Below, piece by piece: positions 5,302-21,043 of a DNA stretch of 42,639 bases. Source of the stretch: Promethearchaeota archaeon. Lineage in GTDB: Archaea > Asgardarchaeota > Lokiarchaeia > Sigyniarchaeales > SOKP01. The stretch lies in the NCBI GenBank assembly GCA_016839585.1, contig JAEOTZ010000047.1, forward strand, positions 1 to 42,639, given 5' to 3'. Position 1 is the first letter of the stretch; each line of letters begins with the position of its first letter. The notes under the pieces were generated by a model, which saw only the letters and a list, made by a program, of their open reading frames with translations, ran no database searches and was not told the origin of the DNA. Made by a program: the position numbers and the translations under genes.

Positions 5302-5622
5302 ATGTCTGATATTCAAAGTCAGTTGAAAGAACATTTAAAAAGTGGCAAAGATTGGGAAAAGATGAATACTCCTATTCAAGGAATTAGTGTTGTTAAAGTT
5401 CCTGCAACAAAAGCAAGACCTGCATTACTATTTTTAGAGATTAATCCTTTAAAAGAAGATGGTAGCCCTATGAAACGAAAAGGTTTATTTGTAGGAAACA
5501 AGGAAATGCTTATAAAATTTAGCGAAGCTTTAAATGATGATAAGACATTTCAATTAATCCAAGAACTTGAGCGAGTTAATCCAAAAGAAACCAAGAATAG
5601 CACTAAGAAATTAGAGATGTGA
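5302..5622 (+). CDS. Hypothetical protein (106 aa)
   Basis: Clean ORF with a TATA-like TTTATATA at ~5208 and a T-rich tract after the stop. Confidence 0.75.
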   Translation: MSDIQSQLKEHLKSGKDWEKMNTPIQGISVVKVPATKARPALLFLEINPLKEDGSPMKRKGLFVGNKEMLIKFSEALNDDKTFQLIQELERVNPKETKNSTKKLEM

Positions 5623-5814
5623 ATTTTCTATTGTTTTTTTAATTTTTTCCTATTTTTATATATAAATAGAGTTTATAGTAATTATAAATTTAAATTCAAA
5701 AAGGTTTAAATAAAAATTATATTGAAAAATAAATCAATTCAATGTAAGACAAAAAATCAAAAACGATTTTGTAATCTCTTTTTCTTTAAATATATCTGGT
5801 AAATAAAGGAATTA

Positions 5815-7869
5815 ATGATTGAAAAAAAACCTCAAAACAATTCCTTAAATCGCTGTAAATTCTGTGGGTGGAAATTTCCAAATGATTTGCTCGAAAAAAT
5901 TAACGAGAATAGTGATCCTCTATTTTGTGAACTCTGTGGTGCTGATATTAGATATGATAATGTAAGTAATCAAGAAAATGATGAAATAATTAAAAATAAA
6001 AGTGAAATTGATTTATGTGGTAGCACTGATAAATCAAAAATTTCCCTCTGGAAACGTATTTATGACACAATAAAAAAATTTGTAATTGAAACTGGAGGGA
6101 GAGAAATTCAAGAAGGATTAACTGAGAAACAAAAAGAAAGCATTACTAGAGTCTTTAATGACAATGATTTCCCAAAAATCTTTAAGGAAAACTTTATTAT
6201 TGTCTTTGCGCGAATTACCTATTTTGAGTTAAAAAAGCTAGAGAGTACGGCAAATCTAAAGAATAGTAAAAGGAATTTAACAAAAGCTGAACTTAAAACT
6301 TTGAATGAACGCCTTAAACCAATTACAGAGAAAGATATTAAAGGTGAATTCTTGAAAAACCTACATAAAATATCCCATAATTATTTTAGAAAATGGCTGA
6401 AAAAATTACAAGTTAAATTGAAGTCAAGTCCAACCTATTATAATGATTTCATCACCTACATCCAATGGCTTATTAAAATTATCGCTAAAATCGTTTCAGA
6501 ACTTTGGGAGAAGACTAATCTCCCCAAATTTGAACAAACAATACTTAAAGATTTAAAAAAATACTTTAACTCATTTTATTCTACTAAAAACAACATAAAA
6601 AATGAACCTGAAGATCAAAAATTAAGAAGACTTAAAGCAACAACTAATAATAAAATTAGTTTAGTTAAAAACACTTCTTTCAACTTGAATGGTGAGACTC
6701 CTGTAAGATCCCTTAATAATGAAGAATCGGAAGCTATAAATACTTTTACAATTTTAGAGCTATTTGAGAACTTAAAGGGAGAGTTAGAGAAAATAGATTC
6801 ACCTGAAATACTTGCTAGAGGAGGTTTAAGTGATAGTATGCTTAGTTCTTTATTAGGTAAATCAGAAAATCATATAAATTATATCAAATCTCAAATAAGG
6901 AAATATAAATTAAAGGGGGAAGTTTATCAGCTTGCTTTAGATTTATTTGATCATTATAAAGAGAGTTTGAAGTCTAAGTTTGGTGAAAAGGCTAAAAATG
7001 CTATTAATTTTATAGAAAAGTATAAGAATTTAAATTTCGTAAGAAAATCATTAAAAAGAATACATTCTCACCATCCAAATCTAATTCTAGATTATTTTAA
7101 GATAGTTAATAATAAAGAAAAAGCATATTGGCTTGGATTTATATTCGCTGATGGTTTTATAGAGGTAAATGGTAAGAGGTTTGCAATAGAACTTGGTAGA
7201 AAAGACAAGAGATTGCTTTATAAATTAGCAAAATGTTTGAAATTTAATGAAGATTATATATTTTATAATAAGGAACATAATTCGTATGTGCTCCGTTTTC
7301 AAAACGAAGAGTTTTGTAATTATTTAGTAAATCTTGGAATGATTCCAGGTGAAATAAAATCTAAAAAAATTAAACTTCCTAAGTTAGACAATCGGGAACT
7401 TTATTTGGCATTCTTATTAGGTTATTTTGATGGTGATGGTCATCAAGGCACATCTAGAATTACTTCAGGTTCAATAAAATTTCTTCGTCAGATTAAAAAT
7501 AGATACAATATCAAATATAGTATTGATTATAGAAGATCGACTTTAACTTTAGGAGCTAGTTTACTAAATGAAATGTTAGATAATTATAAAGATAGTTTAT
7601 TAAGAAAAAGAATTTATCTTAGAGTAAATGTAAAAGCAGAAGTGATAGATAATTTAGGAATTCAAATAGGTGAAATTTTTTACACTGTCGAAAGACTTAG
7701 TAAATTATTATGGGAGATTCCCCTATATAAATTAACAGAGATAATTTCTCAAGAATCAGGGGTGGAGATGTCTGATAGGACACTAGCAAAGTATTGTGAT
7801 AAATTAAATCTTCATAGACCAAATAGTGGTTATTGGCATCAGAAAAAGTTTTTAGGTAAATTCGGTTAA
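5815..7869 (+). CDS. Free-standing LAGLIDADG endonuclease-domain protein with an N-terminal Zn ribbon and a C-terminal HTH
   Basis: Two LAGLIDADG motifs (AYWLGFIFADG, AFLLGYFDGDG), N-terminal CKFC...CELC, and C-terminal LLWEIP...SDRTLAKYCDKLNLHRPNSGYW. No intein splicing motifs seen. Confidence 0.85.
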   Translation: MIEKKPQNNSLNRCKFCGWKFPNDLLEKINENSDPLFCELCGADIRYDNVSNQENDEIIKNKSEIDLCGSTDKSKISLWKRIYDTIKKFVIETGGREIQEGLTEKQKESITRVFNDNDFPKIFKENFIIVFARITYFELKKLESTANLKNSKRNLTKAELKTLNERLKPITEKDIKGEFLKNLHKISHNYFRKWLKKLQVKLKSSPTYYNDFITYIQWLIKIIAKIVSELWEKTNLPKFEQTILKDLKKYFNSFYSTKNNIKNEPEDQKLRRLKATTNNKISLVKNTSFNLNGETPVRSLNNEESEAINTFTILELFENLKGELEKIDSPEILARGGLSDSMLSSLLGKSENHINYIKSQIRKYKLKGEVYQLALDLFDHYKESLKSKFGEKAKNAINFIEKYKNLNFVRKSLKRIHSHHPNLILDYFKIVNNKEKAYWLGFIFADGFIEVNGKRFAIELGRKDKRLLYKLAKCLKFNEDYIFYNKEHNSYVLRFQNEEFCNYLVNLGMIPGEIKSKKIKLPKLDNRELYLAFLLGYFDGDGHQGTSRITSGSIKFLRQIKNRYNIKYSIDYRRSTLTLGASLLNEMLDNYKDSLLRKRIYLRVNVKAEVIDNLGIQIGEIFYTVERLSKLLWEIPLYKLTEIISQESGVEMSDRTLAKYCDKLNLHRPNSGYWHQKKFLGKFG

Positions 7870-8012
7870 TTTTATATTTAATATTTTTTTAAATAATTTG
7901 AATAATTAGTTGTTAGTATTTAATTAGAAATGCTTAATAGTAGGTAAGATGTTATATAATTATAAATCATTTTAAAAATATTTTAAAAAAAACTATAAGA
8001 AGGTGTATTTTT

Positions 8013-8318
8013 CTGGAAGATGATGGCAAACACTGTGTTGTGTGTGGAGGGGAAAGCTTTAGAATAGCTAATGATGAATGGATGAATTTTTAGGACTTTT
8101 CGACCTAAAACATCATACGTGCATTTAGATTTGTAGAAACAGGGCAATTAAAGATGTGCGACGGATGTGGAGCTAAATATTTATTATGCAAACAATGTGG
8201 TGGTTTATTCACACGGGTTCATCCAGCCCTAGAAGCATGGGAAGTTAATCAAAGATGCCCCGCTTGTGGAGCCGAGGATCCTGATGTTAAAGCATGGGAC
8301 GGAGTCTCAGCTCGTTAA
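8013..8318 (+). CDS. Intron-split double zinc-ribbon protein (~91 aa after splicing; exons 8013-8086 and 8117-8318)
   Basis: Spliced product: (M)EDDGKHCVVCGGESFRIANDEWMKRAFRFVETGQLKMCDGCGAKYLLCKQCGGLFTRVHPALEAWEVNQRCPACGAEDPDVKAWDGVSAR, with four CxxC motifs. SD-like AGGTG at 8001; probable CTG start. Absent from the ORF track. Confidence 0.8.
8087..8116 (+). other. 30-nt bulge-helix-bulge mRNA intron
   Basis: GATG(8081-84)/CATC(8111-14) 4-bp helix, 3-nt bulges AAT and ATA, inner stem TTTTAGG/CCTAAAA, exon stem ATGAATG/CGTGCAT. It carries in-frame TAG and TAA; removal gives ATG AAA CGT. Confidence 0.85.
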
Positions 8319-8516
8319 TCAACTCTATTATTTTTTTAGTCTCTTTTTTAATAAAAATGTGTTGATAATTTTTACATTAAATTTTGCACAATATTACAGA
8401 AATTAACTTTATAAAAAATCATTGTATAAAATTCATATCATTTGATTTTATTATTTATTACAAGTTAAGAAATTGTAAAAAAAGATTTATCGAAAAATAA
8501 AAAATGTATGATTAAC

Positions 8517-8975
8517 ATGGCTGATATTAAAGTTGAGATTGCTTCTCCTGAACAGATCGAGGATTTACGAGACTTAACAAAACATTTAGTTGAAGAGTTA
8601 GGGGAAAAATTTGATCCAAAACGTTTCGACTGGGGAATTCGAAGAAGATTGTATGATCCGTTACAAAGGCATGGAATCTTGATAGCCTTAGACGAGGAAG
8701 AGAATAAAGTTGCTGGTATGATTATTGCAGAACTTCGAATCGATCCTTTCGGAACTTCAGAGGGGTATATCAAACAATTTTTCCTAAAGGAAAATTATCG
8801 AGGGAAGGGATATGGTCGAATATTACTCGAAAAAGCCCTTGAACACCTTAAGAAAATAAAAGTAGAGAAGGTAAAAGTAAATCTCAGAGAGGAAGCAAAG
8901 AAAGCTTCTGATTTATATAAGAGTATGAATTTTAAGAAAGTATTCGAGGTTTTAGAATTAAATTTAGCTAAATAA
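8517..8975 (+). CDS. GNAT family N-acetyltransferase
   Basis: Acetyl-CoA motif A (YRGKGYGRILL) and C-terminal LYKSMNF. The start may be 8508 or 8517. Confidence 0.85.
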   Translation: MADIKVEIASPEQIEDLRDLTKHLVEELGEKFDPKRFDWGIRRRLYDPLQRHGILIALDEEENKVAGMIIAELRIDPFGTSEGYIKQFFLKENYRGKGYGRILLEKALEHLKKIKVEKVKVNLREEAKKASDLYKSMNFKKVFEVLELNLAK

Positions 8976-8982
8976 GATTCTT

Positions 8983-9948
8983 ATGAATATCCCTTGGGTT
9001 GAAAAGTACAGGCCACGGAGTTTTGATGAGATTGTAAGTCAGAATATCGCTATTAATAACATTAAAGAATTTACAAAAACCACCGATATGCCTCACATGA
9101 TCTTTGCTGGTCCTGCAGGAACTGGAAAAACAAGTACAGCATTAATAATAGCGAGAACATTCCTTAAAAAGGACGAAATTGCGACAAATCTTTTAGAATT
9201 GAATGCCTCTGACACCGTAAGAATGGATTTTGTACGAAATGTTCTTAAAGGTTTTGTAAATCAAAATATTATTAAGAATGGGTCTTTAAAATTTGTTATT
9301 TTGGATGAAGCAGATAATATCCCTTCCCAAGTTCAACAAGCTCTTAGAAGGATTATAGAAAAAACATCTAATAATATTAAATTCATATTATTATGTAATT
9401 ATATAAATAGAATAATAGATCCTATAATCTCTCGATGTGCTGTATTCAGATTTGTTAATTTACCCAAGGAGAAAATCATAGAGAGATTAAAGTATATCTC
9501 AAAGAAAGAAAAACTTCCATTACCTTCTAATAAAACACAAGAGTTTTTTGAAACGTTATTTTTTATTTCGGGTGGCGATTTAAGGAAAGCAATAAATACT
9601 CTTCAAATGTCAGTGGCTCTTGAATTATTAGATGATTTAGATATTAATGAAATTCTAAAAATTTCTGGATTTTTAGACGAAAAAACTCTGGAGCATCTAA
9701 TTGAAGCTATCAAAAATAAAGATTATAAGAAATCAAGGGAAATAATTGACTTAGTTGAAAATCTCGATAGTAGAAATTTTATACGACAATTATTAAACTC
9801 TCTACTTCCGCTTGATATCAATCCTCAAAACGCATCTATTTTAAGATCGTTTATTGGAGATATAGATTATCGTATAAGTCAAGGTGCAGATGAACATATA
9901 CAAATTGCAGCACTCCTGGCAAAAATTATAGAATTAGTAAATAAATAA
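8983..9948 (+). CDS. rfcS: Replication factor C small subunit
   Basis: PWVEKYRP, Walker A GPAGTGKT, LELNASD, Walker B ILDEAD, SRC motif, GDLRKAIN. Confidence 0.95.
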   Translation: MNIPWVEKYRPRSFDEIVSQNIAINNIKEFTKTTDMPHMIFAGPAGTGKTSTALIIARTFLKKDEIATNLLELNASDTVRMDFVRNVLKGFVNQNIIKNGSLKFVILDEADNIPSQVQQALRRIIEKTSNNIKFILLCNYINRIIDPIISRCAVFRFVNLPKEKIIERLKYISKKEKLPLPSNKTQEFFETLFFISGGDLRKAINTLQMSVALELLDDLDINEILKISGFLDEKTLEHLIEAIKNKDYKKSREIIDLVENLDSRNFIRQLLNSLLPLDINPQNASILRSFIGDIDYRISQGADEHIQIAALLAKIIELVNK

Positions 9949-10001
9949 AATTTTTAGATTTGGTATAAAAAAACGAAAAAAAATCATAAAGCGAAAAGAT
10001 A

Positions 10002-11048
10002 TTGAATACAGAAATTCCAATTTGGAGAATCAAATACTATCCGAGAAGTTTAAACGAATTTTGTGGAAGAGATAGTATAAAAGAAACATTACAACAAATT
10101 ATCAAACAAAAAAATTTCCCACATTTATTATTTATAGGTTCTGAAGGTATTGGAAAAACTACTCTTGCTCAATTATTTGCGAAAGAGTTTTTGGGCAATT
10201 ATTATGATACAAATTTTAAATTAGTTTATGCTAATGTTCCATTAAGTGATGATGAAAGGAACCAAGCCAAATCGGAGGCATATATCTCAACAAGTAAAAT
10301 CGGAAGTATTGCAGGTAAAAGAATAACAACTCCAGCATTTATTCAAATTAAAGTAAAACCTTTTGTACAATTAAAGGTAATTGGAGATGCCCCATTCAAA
10401 ATATTAATTGTAAAAAATTTTGAGTCTTTAGGGTCAGATCAGCAAGGATTTAGGAGATTAATGGAGATTTATGGTTCAAATTGTAGAATGATTTTAATCA
10501 CGACGAAAATTTCAAATATTATTGATCCTATCATAAGTAGATGTCAGATAATATTAATATCTCGCGTAAAAATTGATAGATTTAAAGATTTGATAATAGA
10601 GATTGCTAAAAATGAATCTTTAGTTATTGATGATACTGTTATTGAAGCTCTCTACAAGGTTTCTGAGGGTAAAATTTCAAAAGCAATCGATCTATTGCAG
10701 CTGTGTAGTATTTCAGGAAAAACTATTGATATGCAAAAATTATATGAACATTCACAAAGATTTCAAAATGATCTAATAAAAAATCTATTGTTACTAACCC
10801 TTCAAGGAGATTTTCCAAAATCGAGAGAATTGGCTCGAAAAATTATATCTAATTATAAATATGATTCACATGAAGTATTTACCCTTCTTCTTAAGGAATT
10901 AAATAAATTACCTTTAAATAAATTTACTCGTAATAAATTAATCAATTTAATAGCTGACTCTGATTTTAGGGCAATTGACGGAAGAGACATTGATATTCAA
11001 ATCTCTGCATTATTATCTAAAATATGTTTATTCTCAGAATATTTGTAG
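10002..11048 (+). CDS. Second, divergent RFC small subunit with a degenerate Walker B
   Basis: WRIKYYP, GSEGIGKT, IISRC retained; Walker B replaced by LIVKNFE; insertion after the NASD-equivalent position. Confidence 0.85.
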   Translation: MNTEIPIWRIKYYPRSLNEFCGRDSIKETLQQIIKQKNFPHLLFIGSEGIGKTTLAQLFAKEFLGNYYDTNFKLVYANVPLSDDERNQAKSEAYISTSKIGSIAGKRITTPAFIQIKVKPFVQLKVIGDAPFKILIVKNFESLGSDQQGFRRLMEIYGSNCRMILITTKISNIIDPIISRCQIILISRVKIDRFKDLIIEIAKNESLVIDDTVIEALYKVSEGKISKAIDLLQLCSISGKTIDMQKLYEHSQRFQNDLIKNLLLLTLQGDFPKSRELARKIISNYKYDSHEVFTLLLKELNKLPLNKFTRNKLINLIADSDFRAIDGRDIDIQISALLSKICLFSEYL

Positions 11049-19701: not shown

Positions 19702-21043
19702 TTATACTACCTCCTTAGTTATTTCTTTCAATTTTTCAGGTTCCAAACCTAAAGACATTAATATTAGTTCGCTAATATCATAATATTTCAGATTAGCGCC
19801 ACTTTCTTCAATTCCATCTTGTAAATTCGTTGAACAAAATGGACATGCCGATACAAGTGTATCTGCTCCAGTATCTTCAGCTTCCTCAATTCTAATTTTT
19901 GCAGTCTGTAGGGCAAATTCAGGAAAAGCGGATTTTACACCAGCTCCTGCACCACAACAATAAGCATATTCTTTTATACGCTCCATTTCTACAAATTTTA
20001 ACCCTGGAATTTTTTTTAATATATTTCTGGGAGGTTCATATATACCATTTGATCCAGTACGCTTAGGTTTTGGGGGTATGTTAATTGATACAAGAGGCAT
20101 CAAATTAACAATATCACCATCCCAATCTTTATATCTTTCAGCATTCCTTCCTAAATGACAGGGATCATGATAGGTTACGGTTATTGGTATTTCTTTTATT
20201 AGTTTTAATTTACCAGTATCGAGTAGCTCATCAAAAAATTCCACAGTATGTAATACTCTAAAAGTATATTCCCTATATAATGGATAATCTACTTTAAATG
20301 TATCATAGCATCCAGCACAGCTAAAAATGACCGTATCAATCCCCTTCGATTCAATGACATCTAAATTTTTATTAAGAAATTTTTTAAAAGTTTTCACATC
20401 TCCAGTTCGCAAAATAGGACTACCACAACAAAATTCCTCATCTTGTAATATATTAAATGGAATCCCTGCAGCCTTGAGGATACGAGCCGCTGCGATTGCC
20501 ATCTCTTGTCTTCGATAGGAAGAGGTGCAACCTACAAAATACAAGACTTTAGCATCTGGATCTAATCGAATATCTTTTGGTAACCAAGCCAACCTCTTCT
20601 CGTGAGGTTCATTGTAAGGATTATTGACTTTATTGGCAGCTTCTATATATTCTTGCTGTTTTGGCATTGGACCACCTCCTAATTCAACTAATTTTTCCCT
20701 AAGTTTCATTATAATTTCTAACGGTTCCAAAGTATTGAGAAATTTGCATGAAACAGCACAACTCCCACATTCAGTACATTTGTAAACAATTTCTCGTAAT
20801 TCTTCTGAAGGTTCAATTCTGCCTGTCTCTAATAACAAAGCTAAGATTATGCGACCTCCGCCGCTATATGGATGATAATTATAAATATCTATCGACGGAC
20901 ATGCAGTGGCGTATTTTTGACTTTTAATTTGAACTTGCGGTATCCATTTGCATTTCTCGGATAAGAGAGCCATTCTTTTTATCTATCGAGCATCTTAGAC
21001 ACCGTTTAATCATGTTATTATACTCATCTTCACTAAGTGAGAT
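19702..21043 (-). CDS. Intron-split Fe-S/CCG-domain oxidoreductase (GlpC/HdrD/GlcF-like); exons 21043 (or 21013)-20985 and 20953-19702
   Basis: CTECGSCAVSC, two CCG domains, YHDPCHLGR. After splicing the N-terminus reads MIKRCLRCSICKWIP...ACP, completing the first 4Fe-4S motif. Confidence 0.88.
20954..20984 (-). other. 31-nt bulge-helix-bulge (relaxed) mRNA intron
   Basis: Minus strand reads TG-CTCG-AT^A-GATAA...TTATC-CGAG-AA^A-TGC. Removal corrects a frameshift and gives TGC TCG ATA TGC. Confidence 0.85.

What the first reader, a model, noticed from the sequence alone, without database searches (positions are those of the whole stretch)
8081..8124. Canonical BHB intron hides a zinc-ribbon gene
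The region folds as an exon stem (ATGAATG/CGTGCAT, one mismatch), a 4-bp helix GATG/CATC, two 3-nt bulges and a 7-bp inner stem. Cutting after the second base of each bulge removes exactly 30 nt containing two in-frame stops and joins W-M-K-R-A-F, giving a protein with four CxxC motifs. Archaeal mRNA introns are established mainly for crenarchaeal cbf5; I know of no described Asgard example.
Basis: partly seen in the sequence, partly recalled or inferred. Interest (0 to 1): 0.92.

Follow-up and report, generated by a model that had tools for sequence, protein, structure and literature searches.

The report
tRNA-type mini-intron in Asgard zinc-ribbon gene
A 30-base insert that breaks a small zinc-binding protein gene of an Asgard (Loki-type) archaeon has the RNA shape cut by the tRNA-splicing enzyme. 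Relatives show it must be removed to make the normal protein, a kind of mRNA splicing published for only one archaeal gene (cbf5).

Summary

- **Structure.** Window 8074-8124 (+) forms a bulge-helix-bulge (BHB). Cutting after the second base of each bulge removes 8087-8116 (30 nt, with TAG and TAA in frame).
- **Orthologs.** More than 100 uninterrupted 89-95-aa orthologs in Promethearchaeota lack exactly these 10 codons. They read DEWM-x-R[T/A]FRFVE, as the predicted junction does.
- **Other interrupted alleles.** The same cutting rule restores the full reading frame in 15 alleles at three sites of this 270-nt gene. Several of those inserts are 28-29 nt and shift the frame.
- **Pairing.** Across 11 distinct sequences 86% of cells pair, against 35-42% in slid controls. 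The central helix pairs in all of them.
- **Selection.** Both exons, and a 12-codon stretch with no start codon of its own, are under purifying selection in intron-bearing lineages (dN/dS 0.03-0.13).
- **Enzymes.** The genome encodes two EndA paralogs and RtcB.
- **DNA.** Contigs from three studies carry the insert.
- **RNA.** The only RNA run does not cover the gene, so splicing itself is inferred.
- **Annotation.** The public gene call is only a 54-aa fragment.

This scan has noted similar mRNA introns before in this and other Asgard genomes. I found no publication describing them.

The parts
8002..8005 (+). Shine-Dalgarno-like GGTG, 7 nt before the start codon
   Evidence: Read from the sequence. 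The same arrangement is present in G182.
8013..8015 (+). CTG, the inferred non-canonical start codon. It aligns with the ATG of orthologs that begin MEDDGKHC.
   Evidence: There is no ATG, GTG or TTG in frame between the stop at 7941-7943 and the first CxxC. Alignments place it at the ortholog start. It is conserved in G182.
8013..8086 (+). Exon 1: 24 codons plus 2 nt, carrying the first CxxC and the DEWM motif
   Evidence: Selection on exon 1 in other intron-bearing pairs.
8074..8080 (+). Outer (exon-exon) helix, 5' strand: ATGAATG. Only TG 8079-8080 is conserved as paired.
8081..8084 (+). Central 4-bp helix, 5' strand: GATG, made of the last base of the Trp codon and the Met codon
   Evidence: It is paired in 100% of 11 distinct sequences.
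8085..8087 (+). 5' three-nucleotide bulge AAT. The predicted cut is after 8086.
   Evidence: The cutting rule is quoted from PMC2738675.
8087..8116 (+). The 30-nt BHB mini-intron, with in-frame TAG 8091-8093 and TAA 8106-8108
8088..8110 (+). Intron hairpin: arms 8088-8096 and 8102-8110 (7 bp, an A.A mismatch, 1 bp) around the loop TTTTC 8097-8101
8111..8114 (+). Central helix, 3' strand: CATC (intronic)
8115..8117 (+). 3' three-nucleotide bulge ATA. The predicted cut is after 8116.
8118..8124 (+). Outer helix, 3' strand: CGTGCAT. The CG of the Arg codon pairs with the TG of the Trp codon.
   Evidence: The Arg codon is CGN in 10 of 10 alleles with an intron at this site, against 27 of 104 intron-less alleles.
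8117..8318 (+). Exon 2: 1 nt plus 66 codons plus the stop TAA 8316-8318, carrying three CxxC motifs
8154..8318 (+). The 54-aa fragment from an internal ATG, which is all that the public gene call reports
   Evidence: this exact 54-aa product is on record from NCBI for the 42,639-nt contig.

Best explanation
Window 8087-8116 is a 30-nt bulge-helix-bulge (BHB) intron in the pre-mRNA of a conserved gene. The gene encodes a roughly 91-aa protein with four CxxC motifs (a double zinc ribbon) and is found mainly in Loki-type (Promethearchaeota) Asgard archaea.

Proposed mechanism:
1. The transcript folds so that the exon bases G-AUG (end of the Trp codon plus the Met codon) pair with the last part of the intron, CAUC.
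2. This places two 3-nt bulges on opposite strands of a 4-bp helix.
3. The host's two-subunit tRNA-splicing endonuclease (EndA alpha and beta) cuts after the second base of each bulge.
4. RtcB joins the exons, creating the Lys codon AA|A and the reading ...DEWM-K-RAFRFVE....
5. The 30-nt intron is probably released as a circle.

Translation of the spliced mRNA most likely starts at CTG 8013, behind a GGTG Shine-Dalgarno-like site.

Shown here: the structure, its exact fit to the gap in orthologs, covariation, selection on both exons, and the presence of the enzyme genes. Inferred: the cutting and joining, the circular product, and use of the CTG start.
For: 1. **Orthologs.** 54 proteins of 56-95 aa matched, most of them 89-95 aa and 58-78% identical. 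102 further uninterrupted loci lack exactly the 10 inserted codons (alignment A1).
2. **One rule fits all alleles.** Cutting after the second base of each bulge gives full 91-94-aa frames in all 14 interrupted loci at two sites 8 nt apart. These include 28- and 29-nt inserts that shift the frame. The rule also repairs a third site in G269, where the MFE fold is itself the BHB.
3. **Covariation on alignment A3.**
   - 86% of cells are paired, against 35-42% when partners are slid by 1-3 columns.
   - The central helix is 100% paired.
   - All 7 inner-stem pairs show changes on both sides.
   - The covariation score is 0.575 against 0.20 for shuffles (0 of 500 shuffles reach it).
4. **The exon adapts to the intron.** The Arg codon after the junction is CGN in 10 of 10 alleles with an intron at this site, against 27 of 104 intron-less alleles. 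At the other site the His codon is CAC in 4 of 4.
5. **Selection.**
   - Window against G182: 19 synonymous and 3 non-synonymous differences, dN/dS 0.03.
   - Exon 1 alone: 7 to 1 and 5 to 0 in two intron-bearing pairs.
   - The 12 codons between the intron and the first downstream ATG differ 3:0, 3:0, 4:0, 6:0 and 5:0, synonymous to non-synonymous.
6. **Enzymes.** Two EndA paralogs and RtcB are in the genome. ARAGORN finds introns in 11 of 18 tRNA genes. Asgard EndA is reported as the broad-specificity (alpha-beta)2 type (PMC5829648).
7. **DNA.** The insert is in contigs from three studies, with no 30-nt deletion variant.
8. **Protein model.** The read-through insert is modelled as disordered (pLDDT below 50 at residues 26-37; mean 69.7). 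An intron-less ortholog folds at pLDDT 86, with helices over residues 23-33 that span the junction.
Against: - There is no RNA evidence. The only RNA run found does not cover the gene, so splicing is inferred.
- The BHB is 3 kcal/mol above the MFE fold in the window, and 7-8 kcal/mol above it in two alleles of the other site.
- The exon-exon helix is weak: 2 conserved pairs at this site and 1 at the neighbouring site. A relaxed-specificity endonuclease is therefore required.
- The start codon is CTG, which is unusual. If it were not used, exon 1 could not be translated in this genome and G182.
- Between these two genomes exon 1 differs at only one base, and that change is non-synonymous. Selection on exon 1 in this particular lineage therefore rests on comparison with more distant relatives.
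- I chose the register of structural alignment A3 using the BHB model, which biases pair counts somewhat towards that structure.
Confidence: 0.85

Rival explanations
1. There is no splicing. The insert split the gene for good, and only the 54-aa C-terminal fragment from ATG 8154 is made, possibly with a separate 26-aa N-terminal peptide that associates without a covalent link.
For: Gene callers report exactly this 54-aa product. Exon 1 has no canonical start codon in this genome or in G182.
Against: - The 12 codons RAFRFVETGQLK lie between the insert and ATG 8154 and have no start codon of their own. They change only synonymously in intron-bearing pairs: 3:0, 3:0, 4:0, 6:0, 5:0.
- Exon 1 is under purifying selection in other intron-bearing pairs: 7 to 1 and 5 to 0.
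- The fragment would have three CxxC motifs, leaving one zinc site incomplete.
- This reading does not explain the covarying BHB or the CGN codon bias.
Confidence: 0.05
2. The insert is handled by the ribosome and not at the RNA level. The ribosome would hop over the 28-30 nt, as in phage T4 gene 60, or read through the stops.
For: A stop codon lies soon after the take-off point and a stable hairpin lies in the gap, which resembles known bypass elements.
Against: - There are no matching take-off and landing codons.
- Read-through cannot repair the 28- and 29-nt inserts.
- What is conserved is the 3-4-3 BHB geometry with the exon, including a compensatory change in the 4-bp helix (GACG/CGTT against GATG/CATT). 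A bypass model does not predict this.
- The genome is rich in EndA substrates.
Confidence: 0.04
3. The gene is a decaying pseudogene that has lost its start codon and been disrupted by an insertion.
For: A CTG stands where orthologs have ATG, and there are two in-frame stops.
Against: - dN/dS is 0.03 against G182 and 0.03-0.13 among other interrupted alleles.
- All invariant residues of the family are kept.
- There are no other lesions.
- Nine distinct inserts in separate lineages all keep the same excisable geometry.
Confidence: 0.03
4. The insert is an assembly or sequencing artefact, or is removed at the DNA level in part of the population.
For: None found.
Against: - Contigs of an independent sample match the window with no differences across 6608-8249.
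- Related strains in two other studies also carry the insert.
- No contig lacks the 30 nt.
- The insert is also in independent assemblies: G182, L047, L048 and L051.
Confidence: 0.01

Closest known systems
BHB intron of the cbf5 (pseudouridine synthase) pre-mRNA in Crenarchaeota (Watanabe 2002; Yoshinari 2006; Yokobori 2009, PMC2738675)
   Same: - It is a short intron inside a protein-coding sequence.
- Its borders lie between the second and third bases of two bulges of a BHB that is often relaxed.
- It is cut by a hetero-oligomeric EndA.
- It is patchy among related species, implying gain and loss.
- Gene callers mis-annotate the host gene.
   Different: - The host gene differs: a small, uncharacterised double zinc ribbon.
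- The phylum differs: Asgard/Promethearchaeota.
- The inserts here are 28-30 nt.
- There are three intron sites within one 270-nt gene.
- An identical intron sits in orthologs whose exons are only 73% identical.
- No cDNA confirmation exists here.
BHB intron in the 5' UTR of Haloferax volcanii HVO_1309 (PMC7714728)
   Same: It is an mRNA substrate of the tRNA-splicing endonuclease. There it was shown by circRNA-seq and by cutting in vitro.
   Different: That intron is 46 nt long and lies in the untranslated leader, so it does not interrupt the reading frame. This one must be removed to make the protein.
Non-canonical tRNA introns of Asgard archaea (bioRxiv 10.64898/2026.10.13.758758; PMC5829648)
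   Same: They share the motif, the presumed enzymes ((alpha-beta)2 EndA with the L1 loop, and RtcB), and the lineages. The introns are small and are gained repeatedly.
   Different: Those introns are in tRNA genes. The preprint does not mention mRNA or cbf5.
HAC1/XBP1 mRNA intron of eukaryotes (IRE1 cuts, a tRNA ligase or RtcB joins). This comparison rests on my own knowledge.
   Same: It is a non-spliceosomal intron inside a coding sequence. It is cut by a protein endonuclease at stem-loop sites and joined by the tRNA ligase.
   Different: The endonuclease and the RNA motif are different. That splicing is a regulated stress response, and nothing here shows regulation.

Membership tests
Archaeal BHB intron (substrate of the tRNA-splicing endonuclease EndA) | [quoted passage not shown] | tested here: met
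   GATG 8081-84 pairs with CATC 8111-14, with bulges AAT and ATA. The 4-bp helix is paired in all 11 distinct sequences.
Archaeal BHB intron (substrate of the tRNA-splicing endonuclease EndA) | Flanking helices: an intron-intron helix (h') and an exon-exon helix (h) | tested here: met
   h' is 7-9 bp, 88% paired, and all of its pairs covary. h has 7 positions with one mismatch in the window, but only 2 pairs are conserved (1 at the neighbouring site). Most alleles are therefore of the relaxed type.
Archaeal BHB intron (substrate of the tRNA-splicing endonuclease EndA) | Cutting between the second and third bulge bases yields the functional product | tested here: met
   The rule restores 91-94-aa frames collinear with intron-less orthologs in 15 of 15 interrupted alleles. 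The rule is as stated in PMC2738675.
Archaeal BHB intron (substrate of the tRNA-splicing endonuclease EndA) | The host encodes the splicing endonuclease and an RNA ligase | tested here: met
   Two PF01974 (tRNA_int_endo) matches over the cut-off, on contigs C2 and C39. One RtcB match at E 2e-168 on C7.
Archaeal BHB intron (substrate of the tRNA-splicing endonuclease EndA) | Spliced RNA, and an excised (often circular) intron, are observed | not testable with these tools
   The only RNA run found has no contig on 7974-8375.
Archaeal BHB intron (substrate of the tRNA-splicing endonuclease EndA) | The cognate EndA cuts the transcript in vitro | not testable with these tools
   This is a bench experiment.
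cbf5 pre-mRNA intron family (as a homologous intron) | The intron sits at the catalytic Asp codon of cbf5 | tested here: not met
   The host is an unrelated zinc-ribbon gene. The likeness is in mechanism only.
Pseudogene | Relaxed selection (dN/dS near 1) and accumulating lesions | tested here: not met
   dN/dS is 0.03-0.13, and there is no lesion other than the excisable insert.
Named zinc-ribbon families (Pfam Zn_ribbon_8 PF09723; NCBIfam FmdB TIGR02605) | A score over the curated cut-off | tested here: not met
   The best scores are 23.4 bits against a cut-off of 34.4, and 26.5 against 31.3. No solved structure matched at E <= 0.001.

The most novel reading that the evidence does not exclude
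These BHB mini-introns are mobile elements of Asgard protein-coding genes, not inherited relics.

Evidence that does not exclude this reading:
- One 270-nt gene has acquired inserts at three sites.
- Inserts with unrelated stems sit at the same site.
- The distribution on the gene tree is patchy; well-supported branches force at least 6 changes.
- An identical 30-nt intron sits in orthologs whose exons are 27% diverged, with no shared flank beyond 11 and 3 nt.

This would point to precise spread at the RNA level, for example reverse ligation into an mRNA at a site able to form the exon half of the motif, followed by copying back into DNA. Mobile introns of mRNAs would then exist in the closest archaeal relatives of eukaryotes.
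Probability: 0.3. Interest if true: 0.9.

Novelty: new member of a known kind. Interest (0 to 1): 0.72.

Why it matters
Published archaeal splicing inside a coding sequence rests on one gene, cbf5 of Crenarchaeota. One further case lies in a 5' UTR in Haloferax.

This gene shows the tRNA-splicing machinery very probably working on ordinary mRNAs in Asgard archaea. Its comparative record is unusually clear: three sites, nine distinct intron sequences, and closely related alleles with and without the intron.

Three consequences follow.
- **Annotation.** Gene callers report a 54-aa fragment in place of the 91-aa protein. Similar errors probably affect other Asgard genes.
- **Experiment.** The gene is a compact test substrate (about 65 nt) for Asgard EndA and RtcB.
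- **Evolution.** The patchy distribution and the identical intron in diverged orthologs make it possible to test how such introns are gained and lost in the archaeal lineage nearest to eukaryotes.

Tried and rejected
- **RNA evidence.** The one RNA run offered (X20, a sediment metatranscriptome) gave 5 contigs on 6500-10500 and none on the gene. This says nothing either way.
- **Rfam and ARAGORN on the window.** No matches.
- **De novo genome scan for BHB motifs that join open frames.** The scan was not specific.
  - Raw motif counts equalled the reversed-sequence control: 44,244 against 44,308.
  - Frame-joining hits numbered 736 against 270.
  - The top hits looked like chance or adjacent genes.
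  - My thresholds would miss this intron, because exon 1 is too short.
  - I draw no count of introns from this scan.
- **MAFFT alignment A2.** It aligned the second-site introns by exon homology and not by structure. I replaced it with A3.
- **Link to the neighbouring LAGLIDADG gene (5815-7869), as a homing helper.** The gene is present only in this genome and G182. Ten of the other interrupted loci have the conserved 106-aa neighbour within 1.5 kb upstream, which leaves no room for the 2-kb gene. The link is not supported for this gene.
- **Exact search for the 23-nt hairpin.** It was found in one other species-representative genome (a Promethearchaeota MAG) and nowhere else in this genome. 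A copy on C58 with 4 mismatches shows no interrupted frame.
- **Function of the protein.** No Pfam or NCBIfam family reaches its cut-off and no solved structure matched. The Atlas gives only uncharacterised Promethearchaeota clusters.
- **Regional recombination between this genome and G182.** Identity runs 90-100% along the locus with no clear break.

Full report
**What is in the sequence**

On the + strand, one reading frame runs from 7944 to 8318. It is broken only by TAG 8091-8093 and TAA 8106-8108.

- Outer stem: ATGAATG 8074-8080 with CGTGCAT 8118-8124 (one A.G mismatch, one G.U pair).
- 4-bp helix: GATG 8081-8084 with CATC 8111-8114.
- 3-nt bulges: AAT 8085-8087 and ATA 8115-8117, on opposite strands.
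- Intron hairpin: 8088-8110.

Cutting after the second base of each bulge removes 8087-8116 (30 nt) and creates the codon AA|A, giving ...DEWM-K-RAFRFVE.... That cut position is the one reported for the cbf5 introns (PMC2738675).

The hairpin is more stable than shuffled sequence (z = -2.8). The BHB register is not the minimum-energy fold: -9.4 against -12.4 kcal/mol on the 60-nt segment. A motif of this kind, at a looser threshold, is as common in the genome as in reversed sequence, about 1e-4 per position and length. The structure alone therefore proves nothing. The comparison with orthologs does.

**Orthologs**

I translated 8013-8315 with the two stops read through and searched with that protein.
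- 54 proteins matched; most are 89-95 aa and 58-78% identical, and a few are shorter fragments. Where named, they come from Promethearchaeota, Lokiarchaeota or Hermodarchaeota MAGs.
- In the alignment, every full-length homolog lacks exactly the 10 inserted residues and reads DEWM-x-R[T/A]FRFVE.
- Of 400 genomes of the phylum, 151 hold the gene. In nearly all of them the match spans about 270 nt (258-276) with no stop inside.
- 102 uninterrupted loci were confirmed by script.
- The ATG of the orthologs aligns with CTG 8013, which lies 7 nt behind GGTG. No ATG, GTG or TTG lies in frame upstream of the first CxxC.

**Other interrupted alleles**

The table lists every interrupted allele found. 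All introns at sites A and B begin after GA[TC]GA[AG].

| Site | Position in the gene | Alleles | Insert |
|---|---|---|---|
| A (the window's) | within the codon after TGG ATG | Window, G182, contig L047 | the same 30 nt |
| A | same | L048, L051 | related 30 nt |
| A | same | L054/L055, L058 | 30 nt with unrelated stems |
| A | same | G273, G277 | 28 and 29 nt |
| B | 8 nt upstream, between the D-E codons and TGG | G180, G223, G224 | 30 nt |
| B | same | G177 | 29 nt |
| C | inside HPALE\|SW | G269 | 29 nt |

These come; site C.

The single cutting rule restores a complete 91-94-aa frame in all 14 alleles at sites A and B, including those whose length shifts the frame. At site C the minimum-energy fold is itself a clean BHB, and the same rule restores the frame.

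**Structure support**

I built an ungapped, structure-registered alignment of 12 alleles (11 distinct sequences; A3) and counted pairs on it.
- 86% of cells form standard pairs, against 35-42% when partners are slid by 1-3 columns.
- The central helix is paired in 100% of sequences, with one fully compensatory change (C-G to U-A).
- All 7 inner-stem pairs show changes on both sides.
- The covariation score is 0.575 against 0.20 for shuffles (0 of 500 reach it).
- Only the two outer-stem pairs next to the bulge are conserved.

The exon adapts to the intron. The Arg codon that supplies these two pairs is CGN in 10 of 10 site-A alleles, against 27 of 104 intron-less alleles. At site B the His codon that closes the helix is CAC in 4 of 4.

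Caveat: I set the register of A3 from the BHB model, so pair counts lean somewhat towards it. The intron borders themselves come from the ortholog gap.

**The gene is alive**

| Comparison | Region | Synonymous : non-synonymous | dN/dS or pN/pS |
|---|---|---|---|
| Window vs G182 | whole gene | 19 : 3 | 0.03 |
| Other intron-bearing pairs | whole gene | n/a | 0.03-0.13 |
| L048 vs L051 | exon 1 | 7 : 1 | 0.03 |
| G273 vs G277 (frame-shifting inserts) | exon 1 | 5 : 0 | 0.00 |
| Five intron-bearing pairs | 12 codons between the intron and the first downstream ATG | 3:0, 3:0, 4:0, 6:0, 5:0 | n/a |

The 12-codon stretch has no start codon of its own. It can be translated only from exon 1 across the junction.

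The protein models agree. The read-through model leaves the insert disordered (pLDDT below 50 at residues 26-37; mean 69.7). An intron-less ortholog folds at pLDDT 86 with helices over residues 23-33, spanning the junction.

**Machinery and DNA**

- The genome is 99% complete. It has two EndA-domain genes and RtcB.
- ARAGORN finds only 18 tRNA genes, 11 of them with introns.
- This fits reports that Asgard tRNA genes are heavily interrupted and that Asgard EndA is the broad-specificity (alpha-beta)2 type.
- DNA contigs of an independent sample match the window exactly across the insert. Related strains from two other studies carry it too. No contig lacks the 30 nt.
- The one RNA run does not cover the gene, so splicing is not observed directly.

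**Distribution**

On a tree of the spliced coding sequences the interrupted alleles are scattered. Well-supported branches force at least 6 changes. L047 sits next to an intron-less genome of another genus at 90% identity.

The intron of L047 is identical to the window's over 30 of 30 bases, while the exons are 73% identical and saturated at synonymous sites. By contrast, L048 and L051 differ in the intron about as much as in the exons; I counted these differences by eye from the sequences. The shared flank between the window and L047 is only 11 and 3 nt.

This suggests recent, precise transfer of the intron, but it does not prove it.

The LAGLIDADG gene just upstream (5815-7869) is present only in this genome and G182. 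It is not linked to the other interrupted alleles.

**Context**

- The same window holds a second 31-nt BHB insert in an Fe-S protein gene (20954-20984, minus strand).
- The RNase HII gene of this genome carries a 30-nt hairpin insert with a TAG inside DEAGRGP. Its 4-bp helix has one mismatch.
- Earlier notes of this scan list further cases in this genome and in other Asgard and DPANN genomes. I treated them as leads and checked only the two above.

**Literature**

In the library I could search, coding-sequence BHB introns are reported only for crenarchaeal cbf5, plus a 5' UTR intron in Haloferax. The 2026 preprint on Asgard tRNA introns does not mention mRNA.

**The protein**

It is an uncharacterised double zinc ribbon with four CxxC motifs.
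- No curated family reaches its cut-off, and no solved structure matched at E <= 0.001.
- Its gene order is conserved: a 106-aa ORF, the zinc-ribbon gene, a GNAT acetyltransferase, then RFC.
- The public gene call reports only the 54-aa fragment.

**Verdict**

This is very probably (about 0.85) a genuine BHB intron of an Asgard mRNA. It is a new member of the kind known from cbf5. Its comparative support is strong and there is an open question about mobility. Direct RNA evidence is missing.

Noticed in passing
window 20954-20984 (minus strand): A second BHB mini-intron candidate in the same window. It is a 31-nt insert with central helix CTCG/CGAG, bulges ATA and AAA, and inner stem GATAA/TTATC. 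Cutting by the same rule joins MIKRCLRCS to ICKW, forming a CxxCxxC iron-sulfur motif. I did not check it against orthologs.
   Followed up: partly
window 5815-7869 (+): A 684-aa ORF with an N-terminal Cys pair and a LAGLIDADG_3 domain. It sits between the conserved 106-aa neighbour (5302-5622) and the zinc-ribbon gene. It is present only in this genome and G182 among about 120 loci examined, so it looks like a recent insertion of a free-standing homing-endonuclease-like gene.
   Followed up: partly
window 8013-8015: The zinc-ribbon gene appears to start at CTG, where orthologs have ATG. It lies 7 nt behind GGTG and is conserved in G182. Whether CTG initiates translation in this organism is untested.
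   Followed up: partly
L038:348-376 (minus strand; G269:C13): A third intron site in the same gene. It is a 29-nt insert between HPALE and SW, and its minimum-energy fold is a textbook BHB: a 6-bp outer helix, CUAG/CUAG, and two AAA bulges. Splicing restores a 93-aa frame.
   Followed up: yes
G000:C52, about 9660-9689 (minus strand): The RNase HII gene of this genome has a 30-nt insert with an in-frame TAG inside the DEAGRGP motif. The insert has 9-nt arms around a 5-nt loop, the same 1+9+5+9+4+2 layout as the window's intron. Its 4-bp helix has one G.G mismatch.
   Followed up: partly
whole genome G000: ARAGORN calls only 18 tRNA genes in a 99%-complete genome, 11 of them with introns. One call is a tRNA-Gln with a 1,376-nt 'intron'. 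Many tRNA genes are probably too interrupted to be found.
   Followed up: no
window 8154-8318: The public gene call for this contig is the 54-aa C-terminal fragment. Other 54-aa members of the same protein cluster lie on other contigs and are probably further interrupted alleles called as truncated proteins.
   Followed up: partly
window 5302-9948 and about 100 related loci: The gene order is conserved: a 106-aa ORF of no known family, the zinc-ribbon gene, a GNAT acetyltransferase, then the RFC small subunit. GNAT is present in 105 loci and RFC in 90. This hints at a role near the clamp loader, but nothing tests that.
   Followed up: partly
L047 against window 8087-8116: A metagenome contig whose zinc-ribbon exons are only 73% identical to the window's carries the identical 30-nt intron. 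Its closest relative on the gene tree has no intron.
   Followed up: partly
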